Positions 21,001 to 60,000 are shown, counted from the stretch's first letter. The stretch: 64,000 nucleotides of DNA from Candidatus Woesearchaeota archaeon (GCA_018302105.1 JAGWAD010000023.1:10405-74404); one strand, 5' to 3'. Made by a program: the numbers.

Positions 21001-24000
21001 GTTAATTCTCTTAAGTTTTCTAAATCTCCGGAAATCCCTTGATTATAAAAATCAGCAAATTCTAGGCATGTTAACTCTTTTAATTGCCCTAAATCTTTTA
21101 CAACTTTTGAATCAGTTATACGTACAAATTTCTCATTAATATATTCTGCTTTTTTTCCTGGTTCATGATAAGTATAACCAAATTCAGTTTTAATGTCTTT
21201 ATATTCACAAATCTCTTGGGCAAAAACAGAATTAATAAAAATTAATAATGCTAAAATTAAAATTGTTTTCTTCATTCTAACAACATTTTATTTAATGATG
21301 AACTACTTATTAAACATTTCTCAAAATATAAATTATGAGTTTATACCTCACATTTTTTGATGAATAATAAACCAAGTAATTTTAAGGATAATTGTAGTTT
21401 AATACAAATTTAGAGCATATTATTGATATGAAGTTTAAAAGTAAAGAATAAAAATAGAAACCAATAGTTAAAAATATGAAAAACCAGATTTATTTTATAA
21501 TATTATTTACAATATTTACACTTATTGTGTTTCCTGGATATGGTGTGTTCGGAGGAGATCATTTCATATATATACCACAAATATACAAATCTATTGATAC
21601 AGGATTATATACTAATGACCCATTACTAGATTTCAGCCAGACATCATTAACACGTTTTAGTGACATTATTATAAAATCTATGGAATTTACAAACCTAAAC
21701 ATATTTTTCATTCTAATAATTTTAGCTTTTATAACTAGAATTATATATATTTATTCAATATACAAAATTTCTTTTTACATAACAAATAATGAGAAATTCA
21801 GTTTATTCTCAAGTTTCTTATTAACTGGTGGCTTAATAATTTATGGAACTATGATTACAACTTTTGATGTATTAATTCAGCCAAGATCAATAGCATTATC
21901 ACTTTGTTTATTATTTCTAGTATTTTTCTTTAATAATAAAAAATTGTTTTCAACAATCCCATTAAGCTTGAGTATATTCATGCAGCCAATGACTTCTCTG
22001 CCTTTTTTAGCATTCTTCTATATTGCATTAATGTTAAAATTTATTAAAGATCACAAAATAAATAAAAGTATAATAATTTCAGCATTAATACCAATTATAT
22101 CAGGAATATTATTTTTAGCAGGAATAAAAGGAAATGCAAATCTAAGCTTATTTGGAATAATAAGTCCGGCATGGGAAGAAGTAATAAGGTTTAGAAACCC
22201 AAGTTTTATTTTAGATTGGTCTTATACTTCATTTATTTATTTAATAATAAGTCTTGTTCTTTTTACAGTCATTTATTATAAAAAAGAAGAAATCTTTAAA
22301 TCAGATAGAGAAAAGAAATATAATATACTAATGTTAATCTTGATTCCATTTGCTTTGTTTATTCTGTCTTTTATAACTGTTGATTTAGCAAAGCTGCAAT
22401 TATTCCAGCAATTCCAGTTAGCAAGGTCATTGATAATTTCAAAAATGTTAATAACTATCCTATTTGCATATTTTGCTTATAATAAAATAAAGGAAAATCC
22501 AAAAAACTTTATTTTAAATTTTATACTAACAGGTATAATCATTGCAACTTTAATAAAAGAAATTATGTTAATAATATTTATTCCAGCATTGCTTTTAATT
22601 TTAATTGAAGAAAAATATAATTTATCAAAAAAAATAAGTTTTATTAAGAAAAAACAATTCACTGTTGCTTCTATAATAATTCCTTCATTAGGATTATTAT
22701 TAGCTTTATTTATCTTAGGATTAACAGATAGGATAATTTATTTAATGATAGCAATAGCATTGACAATTCTAATAACCAGTTTATTATATAAAAATAAAAT
22801 GAGAATTAATTATAAGCATATAATTGTTGCTATTATAATCTTAATTATCATCTTTATACCAAAATTTACTATATTTCCAAAATATTACCAGGATAAAGAA
22901 TTTATGGAAGCATGTAGTTGGATTAAAGAAAATACTAATAAGTCAGATACATTTATAGCCCAGCCATTTAGCAATATGAGTGGCTCGATAAGGACAGAAT
23001 GTTTCAGACCATTATTCGCATCAGGAAAAGATGGAGGACAATCTGCATTTAATGAAGAATATGCTCTTGAATGGAAAAAGAGATTTAATCTAATTAATGA
23101 ATTAAGTAATAATAAAAATTTAATTTATAATATATCAAAAGAATACAATATTAAATATATAATATCAGATTCAGACATAAGTTTAGATTATAAAATATCA
23201 TTTAACAACACAAAATATTTTATATATAAAACAGAATCTTAAATTAATAAAGTATTTAAAAGTATTGTAGTTAATCAATTTATGAAGACAAAAAAATTAA
23301 TTTATAGTATAATAATTATTACTATAATAAAATTTATTTTCACTCTATTTATCAGCACACCAACAATTTATTCAGATGAATACGTTTACATTAAAACAGC
23401 CCAGAGTTTCTTCCAGAATTTAAATTTCGATGTACACAACTTAAGAATCTTAAATTATCCTCCGTTTTATTCCATCTTGCTGTCAATTACATTTATTTTC
23501 AATGATGTAAAAATAGCTTATATATTCATGAAACTATTGAATGCAATATTCTCATCATTAATTTTTATACCTGCTTATTTAATATCAAGGGATTTTTTAG
23601 ATGAAAAAAAATCAACATTGGTTTCATTAATTATAGCAATATTACCCATGAGTTTTGCTTTTACGCCATATATAATGTCAGAAAATATATTTTATACATT
23701 ATTTTTATTTTCAATTTACTTCATATACAGGTCTTTTACTGAAAAAAAATATATTTATGATATACTTGCAGGAATTTTTATAGGATTATGTTTCTTAACA
23801 AGATTCGCAGGAGTATCATTAGTATTTATAGTAATTGCCTTGTTTATATACAAACTAATAAAAAAAGAATATTCAGAAATAAATAAAAAATTAGTTATGG
23901 GATTAATTGTTTTACTGGTAATATTTCCATGGATTATAAGAAATATAATTAATTTCGGATTTTCAATATCAGGATTTCTTGGCCATTATACAGGAGAAAT

Positions 24001-57000: not shown

Positions 57001-60000
57001 ATAAAATTCCCAATTGCTATTGCATTTCCAAAAAAGAATATAAAAAATACAGTTCTCTCAAATCTTGTTAAGCCAATTTTTCCATACAAAAAATATACTA
57101 TTAAAAATGAAATAATAAACATTAAAATCATACTAAGATAAGTTGCAACATTTACAATTTGGAATAAATTAAAAATAGGTAATGTGAATAAATACCATCC
57201 TGGTGGGCTATGTAAGAAATTAACAAATCCATTATACCAATAACTGCAAAAATTATGAAATCCACATGTTTTTAAAAAGAATAATTGAGCCATGTAAGAA
57301 CTACCATCATTATTATAATCAACTGGAAAATATTTAAGCATTTTTCCCTGATTAATTATTCTGTAAAAGAAATTTATGAATAATAAGATAACTGGTAAAT
57401 ACAGCCATTTGGTTGGAATTCGGTTACTCATGTTAAAAAGGATTTAATAAAGCTTGGTCTGGATAGCTAGTCCTTAGATAATAATTAAATTTTTCTTCAC
57501 TTAATGAAAAGTTATCAGGATAATTGATTTTCCAGATTTTAATAGGCCCAAGCATTCTTCCTTGGTAAATCGATAAAGGTATTCTAGTACTGCTATCATC
57601 ATATACAAGTTCAAATATTTGTGAATTTTCATTTAATATATACAATCTTCCAACAGTGCTTTCTGAAACTTTAGGAGATAAAAATAAACCAGCAGTAAAA
57701 AGATTAGCCTGGTTGTTTTCATTAAATACAGGCAGCATTTTAAAGCATGCACCATATTCATAGTTTTCAAATTCATATAATTTATCTAAATAAAGGCATT
57801 TAATACTTAATGCAAATTGTTGGCCATTGTACATAAGAACTGCTTTAGGTTGTCCAATTGAATTATTATTGGGAACAGGAATAACAACTGCACCAATAAC
57901 AGCTGCACCCCTGGGTAAGACTTTATCTCCGTATTTTAAATCTTCATCTAATCCAAATCCTCCTCTAAAATAATATAAAGTTCCATCCCTTGTTTTCTGC
58001 ATTAAATTCTGATCAATTGTAAATGTAGGAATTTGAGAAAACCTATCACCATTCTGGTCGCTTCCTATTGAAGAAAAAGCAGGGTATTTTCCAATCTCAT
58101 CTCCAACAATTAATAAATGAGTTGCATTATGTGCATATAAATAACCAAGGGAATCTTCATCTTTTATTGAAGTAAGTACATTTCTTCCCATTAAATAATT
58201 CCACCAGCCATAGAAATTACCGCCATCTGTAACTGTTTGTCTTTGGAATCCGCTCTGAACCCAATAACCATAATCCCACCAATGTGCAAATACAGAATTT
58301 TCAGGAGTATTTTCCCTAACCCATTTTCCAGCATATTGCCATTGAGTATCATAACCAGGACCAGCAAATTTTGAAGTTGCATCACTTACTGAATAATAAT
58401 TAACAAGTATCCCTTTTGCAAAAGAAAATGGAGATATTAAAATTAATAACAATAATACTAAAATAATATAACCTGCAAATTTTAAATTATTTTTATAATA
58501 CAAAAAGTAAACCACAGTTGAAGTTAACACAATAAATAATAAAATTTTAACCATTGTATTAAGATTAAGCAGATTTATTAAAAATGTCAGAATAATAATT
58601 ATAGAAATTATCAAAAGTAAATTTTTATTTTCAGATTTTAAAACATAATCAGTTAAGGAAATTATAAAATAAGCTCCCAAAACAACAACAACTAAGGTAA
58701 ATTCAAATAAAAACCTTATCGCAGTTGTAGCAATTAGTATCATAACAACAGCCCATACCAACATTAAAGTGTGTTTTTTATCAAAAGTTGTTAATGCTGA
58801 AAATTCTTCTTTTTCTTTGTAGTAAGCATAAAAATAATATATTAACATTGTTAAAATAAAAAGAATCAGTGAGCCAAAAAATAACAAGTGTGAAATATTT
58901 GATTCACCATTAAAAATACTATTACCAGAATATCTGGAAAAAATATATAAAAATATAAAGATAAGATATGCAACAACTAAGTATTTTGCTTTTTTGCTTT
59001 TTTTAACTGCATCATAAAATAAAACAGCAGAACCTAACATAAATGCATAAACCATGAGCATGCCATATTGTCCAAACCAGTCTTCAACATAAGGCCTTCT
59101 ATTTTCTGCAACAGTCAATACCCATCGGGTTAATGAAAATGTTTTAAATAGTGTCTGGGAAAGTGCAAGTAATTTATCCAGAATAAAATTAGAACCAAAA
59201 AATATTAGTGAAAATAAAAATACAATTATTGCACATAAAATTAAAGAAAAAATGCCTGCAGGGAAATTCTTAAGATATGAAATTCTTGCTAAAAATGAAT
59301 TAAATTTCTTACTGGGATAAATATAAAGATAAAACAAGCCGGCAATTAAACCAAAATAAAGAAAGCCAGTTGTAAAAGATGTTATTAATCCTAAAAATGA
59401 AGTTCTGCCCATTCCAACAATTAATATTGTAAATATAATAAGAAAAGAACCAAGAACTGTTAGATCTGTCTTATTAAATTTATTAAATATTATTTCAACT
59501 AATACAAATACAGAAGCAGTCATAAAAAAGAAATTAATAGAACCTGCAGTAAGCATTCCTAAACCAGCAGTAAGTGCTGCAATTGCACCAAATAAAATAT
59601 TAAATTTAAATTTCTTAGATTGCAAAGCCAGTAAATAAAAGTAAAATGTCATTACTAAAAACATTAATGCTAAAATATCATGGTCAGTGCTGCCGCCCAT
59701 GCTCCTGAATAAAAATGAAGGAATTATATTTAAAAATAATACAGATAATAAACCAACTCTCCAGTCAAATGCTCTTCTTACAAATAAAAATAAAAATACA
59801 CTAAGTATAGCAGTTGCAATTAAAGGATAATAATTATTTACTAACCCAATACTAACATCAAAATTTAAAAATTTTAAAACTCTGTAAAGATAAGCTACAA
59901 AATAAGAGGAAAATACAGTTATGTCTACATTTGCCCCAAAAGGAGAATACCTTAATGTATCAATAGCAAATAATTTGCCATGTTCAGCAATATATTCAGC

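What the first reader, a model, noticed from the sequence alone, without database searches (positions are those of the whole stretch)
21476..57431. Seven GT-C-like polytopic membrane proteins; three carry the PMT/ArnT loop-1 DE motif
The proteins at 23282-24940 (YSDEYVY), 31226-32935 (SSDEGEYLV) and 37669-39180 (WFDEADYL) have an Asp-Glu pair immediately after TM1. This is the catalytic loop-1 signature of GT39 protein-O-mannosyltransferases and GT83 ArnT enzymes, not the STT3 DxD arrangement. Four more proteins (21476, 48483, 50051, 55944) share the architecture of a polytopic N-terminus, an acidic motif after TM1 and a C-terminal soluble domain. With four Dol-P-sugar-synthase-like GT2s, this implies extensive glycosyl transfer from lipid-phosphate-sugars on the outer face. 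This resembles haloarchaeal AglS but is expanded many times over. It could represent a PMT-like protein O-glycosylation or lipid-glycosylation system not described in archaea.
Basis: partly seen in the sequence, partly recalled or inferred. Interest (0 to 1): 0.75.

Follow-up and report, generated by a model that had tools for sequence, protein, structure and literature searches.

The report
Archaeal surface-glycosylation island, eight GT-C enzymes
A 39-kb stretch of a tiny groundwater archaeon (Woesearchaeota-like) is packed with eight membrane sugar-transferases and the enzymes that make their lipid-linked sugar donors; it is a real and dense cell-surface glycosylation island built from known enzyme kinds, not a new type of system.

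Summary

The three DE pairs are real. In the 37669 family the Asp is invariant, and a family profile aligns it with the ArnT D55/E56 catalytic site.

Four GT2s resemble polyprenyl-phosphate-sugar synthases. One (24937) forms an overlapping cassette with a GT-C and a flippase-like protein.

The best reading is multi-component transmembrane glycosylation modules inside an AglB N-glycosylation island. The island is conserved in related Woesearchaeota. The proteins are not GT39 PMTs, and the acceptors are unknown.

Verdict: new members of known kinds. One lead deserves follow-up: DUF6798 is a large uncharacterised OST/DPY19-like GT-C family.

The parts
21476..23242 (+). GT-C glycosyltransferase of the DUF6798 family (588 aa), with an OST/DPY19-like C-terminal domain and no WWDYG motif. 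Conserved D28 after TM1.
23282..24940 (+). PMT_2 (ArnT-like) GT-C, 552 aa, with loop-1 D32-E33. First gene of a GT-C / GT2 / flippase-like cassette.
   Evidence: PMT_2 2.2e-10 and PMT 1e-7. hhalign versus the 37669 family gives 97.3% with SDEY aligned on WDEaDY. Its stop codon overlaps the start of 24937.
24937..25818 (+). GT2 polyprenyl-phosphate-hexose synthase-like enzyme with two C-terminal TM helices (AglJ/GtrB/ArnC type).
   Evidence: Glycos_transf_2 1.8e-25. Best NCBIfam hits are AglJ 2.2e-46 and dolichyl-phosphate hexose transferase 4.3e-33, both below the equivalog cut-offs.
25815..26726 (+). Flippase-like polytopic protein (LPG_synthase_TM / TIGR00374). Candidate Dol-P-sugar flippase.
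   Evidence: PF03706 8e-27. TIGR00374 flippase-like domain 6.6e-13. Its start overlaps the stop of 24937.
31226..32935 (-). PMT_2 (ArnT-like) GT-C, 569 aa, with loop-1 D35-E36-G-E. Closest paralogue of 37669.
   Evidence: PMT_2 3.4e-13. BLASTP versus 37669 gives 4.6e-19. Its SDEGEY aligns with WDEADY in A3.
33021..33716 (+). Soluble GT2, Dol-P-sugar-synthase-like. Divergently transcribed from 31226.
   Evidence: Glycos_transf_2 3.7e-21. Best NCBIfam hits are PgfS, AglJ, ArnC and Dol-P-hexose transferase, all sub-threshold.
36611..37525 (+). GT2 of the Glyco_tranf_2_3/GT21-like type. Conserved upstream partner of the 37669 GT-C.
   Evidence: Pfam hits. The same GT2-then-PMT_2 pair occurs in L005 and L006.
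37669..39180 (+). PMT_2 (ArnT-like) GT-C, 503 aa, with loop-1 W-F-D54-E55-A-D-Y.
   Evidence: PMT_2 1.5e-18. 22 homologues found. D54 invariant and E55 kept in 20 of 23. The family profile hits ArnT 5ezm at 1.7e-4 with the DE pair on the ArnT DE pair.
43550..48443 (-). N-glycan assembly genes downstream of 48483: PF00953 initiating transferase (47439-48443), Wzx-type flippase (46177-47466), GT2 Dol-P-sugar-synthase-like (45453-46211), GT4 (44362-45456) and GT2 (43550-44365).
   Evidence: Pfam and NCBIfam hits. All are on the same strand with overlapping or abutting ORFs.
48483..50012 (-). PMT_2 GT-C, 509 aa, with loop-1 G-D35-M-F-R-D39. Heads the operon that contains the initiating transferase and Wzx.
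   Evidence: PMT_2 2.6e-11. hhalign versus the ArnT-like family gives 98.1%. D35, R38 and D39 are invariant in 4 homologues. A 49% identical homologue is syntenic in L008.
50051..52051 (+). GT-C of a PTPS_related/YfhO-like family, 666 aa. Large extracytoplasmic C-terminal domain plus a C-terminal TM anchor. Loop-1 D35...H39..E42-A-E44-Y.
   Evidence: It has no Pfam hit itself, but 4 of 5 family members hit PTPS_related (best 5.6e-11) and 2 of 5 hit YfhO. hhalign versus the ArnT-like family gives 97.9%, E 5e-13, over 418 columns.
52947..53690 (-). GT2 Dol-P-sugar-synthase-like enzyme. Last gene of the AglB operon.
   Evidence: Glycos_transf_2 8e-34. NCBIfam hits include ArnC, PpgS and Dol-P-hexose transferase. 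A 63% identical homologue sits at the same position in L008.
55944..57431 (-). PTPS_related-type GT-C, 495 aa, immediately downstream of aglB. Loop-1 V-D38-Y-N-N-D42-G.
   Evidence: PF10131 8.8e-7, 28.2 bits against a cut-off of 26.4. hhalign versus the ArnT-like family gives 78.6%, E 1.7e-5, with D42..Y46 aligned on D54..Y58. The AglB-G adjacency is conserved in a Woesearchaeota MAG (L008); L007 also encodes both.
57433..60234 (-). AglB/STT3 oligosaccharyltransferase, 933 aa, with WWDYGYW. The eighth GT-C.
   Evidence: STT3 3.6e-14 and STT3-PglB_core. archaeo_STT3 1.1e-28. The motif is visible in the translation.

Best explanation
The region is the cell-surface glycosylation island of a DPANN (Woesearchaeota-like) archaeon. 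It combines an AglB-dependent N-glycosylation pathway with at least five GT-A/GT-C modules of the kind called three-component or multi-component transmembrane glycosylation systems.

The AglB pathway consists of a PF00953 initiating transferase, GT4 and GT2 elongating enzymes, a Wzx flippase and AglB itself.

Proposed mechanism:
1. Shown: the enzyme families are present.
2. Inferred: the neighbouring GT2 enzymes (24937, 33021, 45453, 52947, and perhaps 36611) load single sugars from nucleotide sugars onto dolichyl phosphate on the cytoplasmic face.
3. Inferred: the Dol-P-sugar is flipped by the flippase-like 25815 or by another transporter.
4. Inferred: on the outer face each GT-C uses its conserved loop-1 Asp to transfer that sugar onto an acceptor. 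The loop-1 acids are D-E in three proteins and D or E at neighbouring positions in the others.

Given the operon links to aglB, Wzx and the initiating enzyme, the most likely acceptors are the N-glycan itself, either lipid-linked after flipping or already on protein. This is what AglS does in Haloferax and what ALG3/9/12/6/8/10 do in eukaryotes. The methyl-, carbamoyl- and deacetyl-modifying enzymes in the island would add further decoration. Acceptor identity is the weakest step.
For: Family membership of all seven proteins is supported.

The DE pair aligns with the ArnT D55/E56 catalytic site (PMC7801869).

The four GT2s best match polyprenyl-P-sugar synthase models.

23282, 24937 and 25815 overlap stop-to-start, giving GT-C, then a TM-anchored GT2, then a flippase-like protein. 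This is the architecture reviewed in PMC8035078 and PMC11127046.

Operon links:
- AglB-55944-deacetylase-MT-MT-GT2 run on one strand in the window; L008 has the same genes with MT before the deacetylase.
- 48483 leads the operon with PF00953 and Wzx.
- The GT2-then-PMT_2 pair 36611/37669 is conserved in two other DPANN contigs.

For the DUF6798 family there is independent Rosetta-stone evidence: a natural GT2 + DUF6798 fusion protein and a member followed directly by a GtrA-family gene.
Against: There are no biochemical data. Donor, acceptor and sugar identities are all inferred.

The GT2 hits are all far below the NCBIfam equivalog cut-offs, so Dol-P-sugar synthase activity is plausible rather than shown.

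Only one flippase-like gene and one Wzx are present for at least five modules.

The support for 55944 is modest: 28.2 bits against a cut-off of 26.4, and hhalign 78.6%.

No structure model was made for six of the seven proteins.

Gene linkage to aglB is also compatible with O-glycosylation or lipid glycosylation encoded in the same island.
Confidence: 0.7

Rival explanations
1. PMT-like protein O-glycosylation. Some or all of the DE-motif GT-Cs, and possibly the OST/DPY19-like DUF6798 protein, would transfer a sugar from Dol-P-sugar directly onto Ser/Thr (or another side chain) of secreted or S-layer proteins.
For: The DE pair is at the position of Pmt1 D77/E78. 23282 also passes the Pfam PMT model (1e-7). 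The 21476 fold is closest to the peptide-directed enzymes STT3/AglB, and it shares a sequence motif with DPY19. Archaeal O-glycosylation enzymes are still unidentified, so a role is open (PMC4973528).
Confidence: 0.2
2. Lipid or lipoglycan glycosylation, as with ArnT or YfhO. The GT-Cs would decorate membrane glycolipids, a lipoglycan or a secondary surface polymer rather than glycoproteins.
For: The closest solved relative by sequence is ArnT, a lipid A modifier. The PTPS_related/YfhO-type proteins 50051 and 55944 resemble the enzymes that glycosylate lipoteichoic and wall teichoic acids. GT2 36611 is of the GT21/HpnI-like type, which includes lipid-directed enzymes.
Against: The tight operon links are with aglB, Wzx and the N-glycan initiating enzyme. 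No lipoglycan or teichoic-acid-like polymer synthesis genes were recognised in the window.
Confidence: 0.2
3. Some of the seven are not glycosyltransferases. They would be GT-C-fold proteins with other roles, such as flippase-associated factors like Agl23, polymerases or ligases, or inactive paralogues.
Against: Every family keeps a conserved loop-1 Asp at or next to the catalytic position. The Agl23 hit scores 15.8 bits against a cut-off of 126. GT2 partners sit next to most of them.
Confidence: 0.07

Closest known systems
Bacterial three-component / multi-component transmembrane glycosylation systems (GtrA-GtrB-GtrC; CsbB-GtcA-YfhO; GtlA-GtcA-GtlB; GacI-GacK-GacL)
   Same: A GT-A (GT2) polyprenyl-phosphate-sugar synthase, a flippase and a polytopic GT-C of PMT_2, YfhO or no-Pfam type with a DxD-like loop-1 motif, encoded side by side. 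The 23282-24937-25815 cassette matches this layout, and several GT-A/GT-C pairs occur in one genome as in B. subtilis.
   Different: The host is an archaeon, so the carrier is presumably dolichyl phosphate. The flippase candidate is an LPG_synthase_TM/TIGR00374-type protein, not GtrA. The modules sit inside an AglB N-glycosylation island. Acceptors are unknown.
ArnT (GT83; PDB 5ezm/5f15), within Pfam PMT_2
   Same: It is the only solved structure reached by sequence profile from the 37669 family (E 1.7e-4). The loop-1 D-E aligns with the ArnT D55/E56 site. Both have a polytopic N-terminal region plus a soluble outer C-terminal domain.
   Different: Sequence similarity is very low. No lipid A exists in archaea. 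The sugar donor and acceptor are certainly different.
Haloferax volcanii AglS (Dol-P-mannose mannosyltransferase that adds the last N-glycan sugar on the outer face)
   Same: It is an archaeal GT-C-type enzyme distantly related to PMTs that uses a Dol-P-monosaccharide to finish an N-glycan outside the cell (PMC4973528). This is the functional model preferred here.
   Different: Haloferax has one such enzyme, whereas this island has seven.
Protein O-mannosyltransferases (GT39; Pmt1/Pmt2, 6p25)
   Same: A loop-1 DE motif, the GT-C fold and a Dol-P-sugar donor.
   Different: No PMT_4TMC or MIR domains are present, and the Pfam PMT model is weaker than PMT_2 or absent. They are not members of GT39.
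STT3/AglB oligosaccharyltransferases and DPY19 C-mannosyltransferases (relevant to 21476 only)
   Different: WWDYG is absent and is replaced by x-Q-P-F-S. Pfam STT3 and Dpy19 models do not hit. Gene context and a GT2 fusion point to a monosaccharide Dol-P donor.

Membership tests
GT-C superfamily | Polytopic N-terminal region (8-13 or more TM helices) followed by an extracytoplasmic soluble domain | tested here: met
   The hydropathy scan shows about 9-14 hydrophobic segments followed by 100-250 polar C-terminal residues in all seven. The AF2 model of 21476 shows about 13-14 TM helices plus an alpha/beta C-terminal domain.
GT-C superfamily | Conserved acidic residue(s) (DxD, DD, DE or ExE) in the first outer loop shortly after TM1 | tested here: met
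   D54 is invariant and E55 is kept in 20 of 23. D28 is kept in 51 of 58. D35 and D39 are invariant in 4. D35 and E42 are invariant in 5. D38 and D42 are invariant in 3. The motif definition is from PMC6801728.
GT-C superfamily | Fold similarity to solved GT-C enzymes | tested here: met
GT-C superfamily | Uses a polyprenyl-phosphate-linked sugar donor on the outer face | not testable with these tools
   This is inferred only from neighbouring Dol-P-sugar-synthase-like GT2s, a flippase-like gene, and a GT2 fusion and GtrA neighbour in the DUF6798 family.
Pfam PMT_2 (PF13231; ArnT-like, GT83/GT39-like) | HMM score above the gathering cut-off (26.1 bits) | tested here: met
   Met for 23282 (41.4), 31226 (50.6), 37669 (68.0) and 48483 (44.4). 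Not met for 21476, 50051 and 55944.
GT39 protein O-mannosyltransferase (PMT) | PMT N-terminal domain (PF02366) as the best match, plus the PMT_4TMC C-terminal TM domain (and MIR domains in eukaryotes) | tested here: not met
   Only 23282 hits PF02366 (32.2 bits), and that is weaker than its PMT_2 hit. No PMT_4TMC or MIR hit at E<=0.1 in any of the seven.
PTPS_related (PF10131) / YfhO (PF09586) GT-C families | HMM score above the gathering cut-off | tested here: inconclusive
   55944 scores 28.2 bits against a cut-off of 26.4, so it just passes. 50051 itself has no hit, but 4 of 5 of its 33-39% identical full-length homologues hit PF10131 (best 5.6e-11) and 2 of 5 hit YfhO.
STT3/AglB oligosaccharyltransferase | WWDYG motif in the C-terminal domain, plus the STT3 HMM | tested here: not met
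   Only 57433-60234 has WWDYG and the STT3 hit. 21476 shares the preceding W-x-x-x-N-T motif and the C-terminal domain fold but has A-Q-P-F-S in place of WWDYG.
DPY19 C-mannosyltransferase (GT98) | Dpy19 HMM and an ExE loop-1 motif | tested here: not met
   There is no Pfam Dpy19 hit for 21476 or for any of 58 homologues. Only a local profile match to 7zlg was found (E 2e-6, positions 373-522). Loop 1 has a single conserved D28, not ExE.
Three-component / multi-component transmembrane glycosylation system | Adjacent genes for a GT-A polyprenyl-P-sugar synthase, a flippase and a GT-C | tested here: met
   Fully met for 23282-24937-25815, which overlap stop-to-start. GT2/GT-C pairs without a dedicated flippase are 33021/31226, 36611/37669, 45453/48483 (with Wzx in the same operon) and 52947/55944.
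AglS-type Dol-P-mannose mannosyltransferase | Sequence orthology to Hfx. volcanii AglS, and mannose transfer to the N-glycan | not tested
No NCBIfam hit naming AglS appeared at E<=0.01.

The most novel reading that the evidence does not exclude
21476 would represent a large uncharacterised family (DUF6798) of prokaryotic OST/DPY19-like GT-C enzymes. The family has more than 3000 clusters at 50% identity and occurs in both bacteria and archaea. These enzymes would use a Dol-P/Und-P-monosaccharide, supplied by a partnered or even fused GT2, to glycosylate proteins directly. That would make them a prokaryotic counterpart, and a possible ancestor-like relative, of the eukaryotic DPY19 C-mannosyltransferases or of a non-N-linked, STT3-derived protein glycosyltransferase. 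If so, the island would encode a second, AglB-independent protein glycosylation route in archaea.
Probability: 0.12. Interest if true: 0.8.

Novelty: new member of a known kind. Interest (0 to 1): 0.4.

Why it matters
DPANN archaea have very small genomes and depend on contact with hosts. Here about 37% of a 39-kb region codes for eight GT-C enzymes, and most of the rest codes for other glycan-building or glycan-modifying enzymes. That suggests surface glycan diversity is central to their biology, for example in host recognition or virus evasion.

The island offers several things for follow-up:
- a compact set of archaeal GT-A/GT-C pairs to express and test;
- a clear loop-1 Asp to mutate in each protein;
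- a first fold assignment and functional context for DUF6798.

It does not, on present evidence, reveal a new kind of glycosylation chemistry.

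Tried and rejected
1. Single-sequence phmmer of 37669 against the PDB gave only chance hits to Cas6 (E about 0.5-1). A family profile was needed.
2. The first AlphaFold run of 21476 used a 3-sequence alignment and gave pLDDT 43. It was unusable and was discarded. It was redone with 58 homologues from the exhaustive search.
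3. The word-indexed homologue search suggested that 21476 is nearly an orphan, with 3 hits. The exhaustive profile search showed this was a sensitivity artefact, with 3007 hits.
4. The F-family profile against the PDB gave no hit.
5. The G family against the F family and against the DUF6798 family by hhalign was not significant. The G alignment has only 3 close sequences.
6. The afdb50 fold library was unavailable.
7. A literature search for DUF6798 found nothing.
8. The Agl23 hit of 48483 (15.8 bits against a cut-off of 126) and the LA_3751 family hits were rejected as uninformative.
9. The idea that all seven are recent paralogues was rejected. Only 31226/37669 (4.6e-19) and 37669/48483 (1.4e-9) show clear pairwise BLAST similarity; 23282/48483 is weak (2.9e-4).
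10. No tRNA genes or composition shift mark the island as a recent insertion.

Full report
**Origin and setting.** The window has about 25% G+C throughout, with no compositional break. It matches a 64,023-bp scaffold from a groundwater metagenome assembly (ENA ERZ28563625, ANAN16-1_SAMN03842437 scaffold_1062). The closest genome-resolved relatives of two of its proteins are MAGs named Candidatus Woesearchaeota archaeon and Nanoarchaeota archaeon. Upstream ORFs look like archaeal housekeeping genes by inspection of their translations (no profile search was run on them). This is a DPANN archaeon.

**Observation.** All seven ORFs exist at the stated coordinates. The three quoted motifs are present:
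- 23282: YSDEYVY, D32/E33
- 31226: SSDEGEYLV, D35/E36
- 37669: WFDEADYL, D54/E55

Each follows the first hydrophobic helix by 5-11 residues. Every N-terminus is K/R-rich, consistent with a cytoplasmic N-terminus and an external loop 1.

**Family assignment.**
- *23282, 31226, 37669 and 48483.* All four pass Pfam PMT_2 well above its cut-off (E 2e-10, 3e-13, 1.5e-18 and 2.6e-11).
- *55944.* It passes PTPS_related (PF10131) narrowly, at 28.2 bits against 26.4. A profile of it and two relatives aligns over 322 columns with the ArnT-like family (hhalign 78.6%, E 1.7e-5).
- *50051.* It has no Pfam hit itself. Four of its five full-length homologues (33-39% identity) hit PTPS_related and two hit YfhO. 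The family profile aligns with the ArnT-like family over 418 columns (97.9%, E 5e-13).
- *21476.* It hits only the C-terminal DUF6798 model.
  - A word-indexed search found 3 relatives. An exhaustive profile search found 3007 representative clusters, 332 of them below 1e-30.
  - With 58 of these as the alignment, AlphaFold gave pLDDT 92.4 and pTM 0.92. An earlier 3-sequence run was unusable.
  - Its N-terminal half also aligns with the ArnT-like family (97.6%) and with the 50051 family (93.4%).

All seven are therefore GT-C superfamily proteins, but they come from at least three or four distinct families rather than one paralogous burst. Only 31226/37669 and 37669/48483 show clear pairwise BLAST similarity. 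An eighth GT-C, AglB/STT3 with WWDYGYW, lies at 57433-60234.

**The loop-1 acidic motif.**
- *The 37669 family.* In 23 sequences (31226 included), D54 is invariant, E55 is kept in 20, and W52 and Y58 are nearly or fully invariant.
- *Match to ArnT.* The family profile reaches one solved structure, ArnT from C. metallidurans (5ezm, E 1.7e-4), and aligns W-w-D-E-a-d-Y with ArnT G-P-D-E-G-R-Y. PMC7801869 states that D55/E56 of 5ezm, D77/E78 of Pmt1 (6p25) and D281/D282 of EmbA are the equivalent active-site pairs, and that all GT-C enzymes examined keep at least the first Asp. The ArnT chain residue numbers in my alignment are offset by about three from the published numbers. I attribute this to extra residues in the deposited chain; that is an inference.
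- *23282.* hhalign places its SDEY on the same columns.

The further claim that this marks a PMT/ArnT-specific signature is too strong. PMC6801728 describes DxD, DD, DE and ExE as variants of one motif found right after TM1 in all GT-C families.

The other four proteins also keep acidic residues here:
- 21476: D28, 51 of 58
- 48483: D35 and D39, 4 of 4
- 50051: D35, H39 and E42, 5 of 5
- 55944: D38 and D42, 3 of 3 close relatives

The first acidic residue after TM1, E33 in both 48483 and 50051, is not conserved. Profile alignments suggest two acidic positions in the loop, about 6 residues apart, used differently by the families. Alignment confidence in this loop is low.

**Donor-making enzymes and gene order.** Four GT2s (24937, 33021, 45453, 52947) match the catalytic domains of polyprenyl-phosphate-sugar synthases among their strongest NCBIfam hits (AglJ, Dol-P-hexose transferase, PgfS, ArnC, PpgS). 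All hits are well below the equivalog cut-offs, so the class is likely and the specificity is unknown.

Gene-order observations:
- 24937 has two C-terminal TM helices, as GtrB and ArnC do. It is translationally coupled on both sides: its start overlaps the stop of GT-C 23282, and its stop overlaps the start of 25815, an LPG_synthase_TM/TIGR00374 flippase-like protein. This is the layout of bacterial three-component or multi-component transmembrane glycosylation systems, which use PMT_2-, YfhO- or unclassified-type GT-Cs (PMC8035078; PMC11127046).
- 31226 is divergent from GT2 33021.
- GT2 36611 precedes 37669, a pair that recurs in two other DPANN contigs.
- 48483 heads a same-strand run containing the PF00953 initiating transferase, Wzx, GT2 45453, a GT4 and a GT2.
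- aglB is followed by 55944, a polysaccharide deacetylase, two methyltransferases and GT2 52947. A Woesearchaeota MAG has the same set in nearly the same order at 47-63% identity, with homologues of 48483 and 50051 following.

For the DUF6798 family, two unrelated contigs give independent support for a lipid-linked monosaccharide donor. One member is a natural fusion of an N-terminal GT2 to the GT-C (873 aa). Another is followed directly by a GtrA-family gene, with a GT2 and a second GtrA nearby.

**Mechanism proposed.**
1. GT2s load sugars onto dolichyl phosphate on the cytoplasmic face.
2. The lipid-sugar is flipped.
3. Each GT-C transfers the sugar outside the cell, using its loop-1 Asp.

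The presence of the enzyme families and their linkage is shown. Donor, sugar and acceptor are inferred.

I favour N-glycan finishing or branching as the main role, on lipid-linked or protein-bound glycan, as with AglS and the eukaryotic lumenal ALG enzymes. The reason is the operon links to aglB, Wzx and the initiating enzyme. Protein O-glycosylation and lipid or lipoglycan glycosylation remain open. The closest sequence relative with a structure, ArnT, modifies a lipid, and YfhO-type enzymes modify teichoic acids. The family alone therefore does not fix the acceptor.

**Comparison with the known.**
- The proteins are not GT39 PMTs. PMT_2 beats PMT, and no PMT_4TMC or MIR domains are present.
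- They could not be compared with AglS directly.
- PMT-domain GT-Cs in archaea have been noted before, namely AglS and Agl1. [quoted passage not shown]
- Similar islands with several GT-Cs, Wzx, PF00953, STT3, carbamoyltransferases and radical SAM enzymes occur in other DPANN contigs.

The finding is thus a dense but recognisable archaeal glycosylation island made of new members of known enzyme kinds.

**Most interesting residue.** 21476 and DUF6798 form a very large, unstudied family found in both domains, with one member from a Chloroflexi bacterium. No paper in the searched library mentions DUF6798.
- Its W-I-x-x-N-T motif matches both the window's AglB and C. elegans DPY19 (profile E 2e-6).
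- It lacks WWDYG.

Whether it acts on proteins is unknown. I give that reading about 12%.

**Limits.**
- Only one of the seven proteins has a structure model.
- The homologue sets for 48483, 50051 and 55944 are small (3-5 sequences).
- Loop-1 alignments between families are low-confidence.
- No phylogeny against characterised GT-Cs was possible.
- Nothing here tests activity.

Noticed in passing
window 21476-23242; related proteins P0031-P0177, L009, L010: DUF6798 is a large uncharacterised GT-C family: 3007 clusters at 50% identity, found in bacteria and archaea. Its C-terminal domain resembles those of OST and DPY19. One member is a natural GT2 fusion and another has a GtrA gene directly downstream. 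No paper in the searched library mentions it.
   Followed up: partly
window 22919-22948 (21476), 24665-24694 (23282), 59293-59352 (AglB), and equivalent sites in 31226 and 50051: A shared motif W-[ILV]-x-x-N-[TS/x], followed by a hydrophobic strand, opens the C-terminal outer domain in several of the GT-Cs. In AglB it directly precedes WWDYG (KWVRENTPENSVFAHWWDYG). This suggests a common domain start across otherwise unrelated GT-C families.
   Followed up: partly
window 50051-52051 (residues about 420-640 and 641-666): The large outer domain of 50051 and of 2 of its 4 homologues gives weak sub-threshold hits to Aldose_epim, a galactose-mutarotase-like beta-sandwich (E about 0.01-0.02). A C-terminal TM anchor follows. 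This may be a carbohydrate-binding module, which would favour a glycan acceptor.
   Followed up: no
window 35968-36438: A small SET-domain protein (E 1e-14) is encoded inside the glycosylation island, overlapping the end of a GT4 gene. This is an unexpected place for a putative lysine methyltransferase.
   Followed up: no
window 39906-41027 and 39177-39905; L005 11542-12837: A radical SAM/SPASM enzyme and a methyltransferase lie just downstream of, and convergent with, the 37669 GT-C. A radical SAM gene also abuts the homologous PMT_2 gene in a 909-kb DPANN contig. This may be a conserved sugar-modifying partner.
   Followed up: partly
window 28343-30025; L005 1-761 and 14729-16504: A NodU/CmcH-type carbamoyltransferase (E 1e-61) sits in the island, and two copies occur in the related DPANN island. 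This hints that the surface glycan carries O-carbamoyl groups.
   Followed up: no
window 36611-37525 with 37669-39180; L005 9099-11554; L006 9115-11497: The pairing of a GT21/PgaC/HpnI-like membrane GT2 with the ArnT-like GT-C is conserved in three genomes. This GT2 type differs from the Dol-P-sugar-synthase-like GT2s elsewhere in the island.
   Followed up: partly
window 20238-21275 and 5603-7546: Two secreted or anchored surface proteins flank the island. One is a leucine-rich-repeat protein with a signal peptide and a C-terminal TM. The other is a 647-aa repetitive protein with a C-terminal TM. Both are candidate glycosylation substrates.
   Followed up: no
window 9990-17501: Upstream sugar-nucleotide and modification genes extend the glycosylation region well left of the finding's start. 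By inspection of the translations they include an FAD-dependent mutase/oxidase-like protein, a B12-type radical SAM protein and a 696-aa dehydrogenase-oxidoreductase fusion; a UDP-sugar dehydrogenase at 16251-17501 is supported by Pfam.
   Followed up: no
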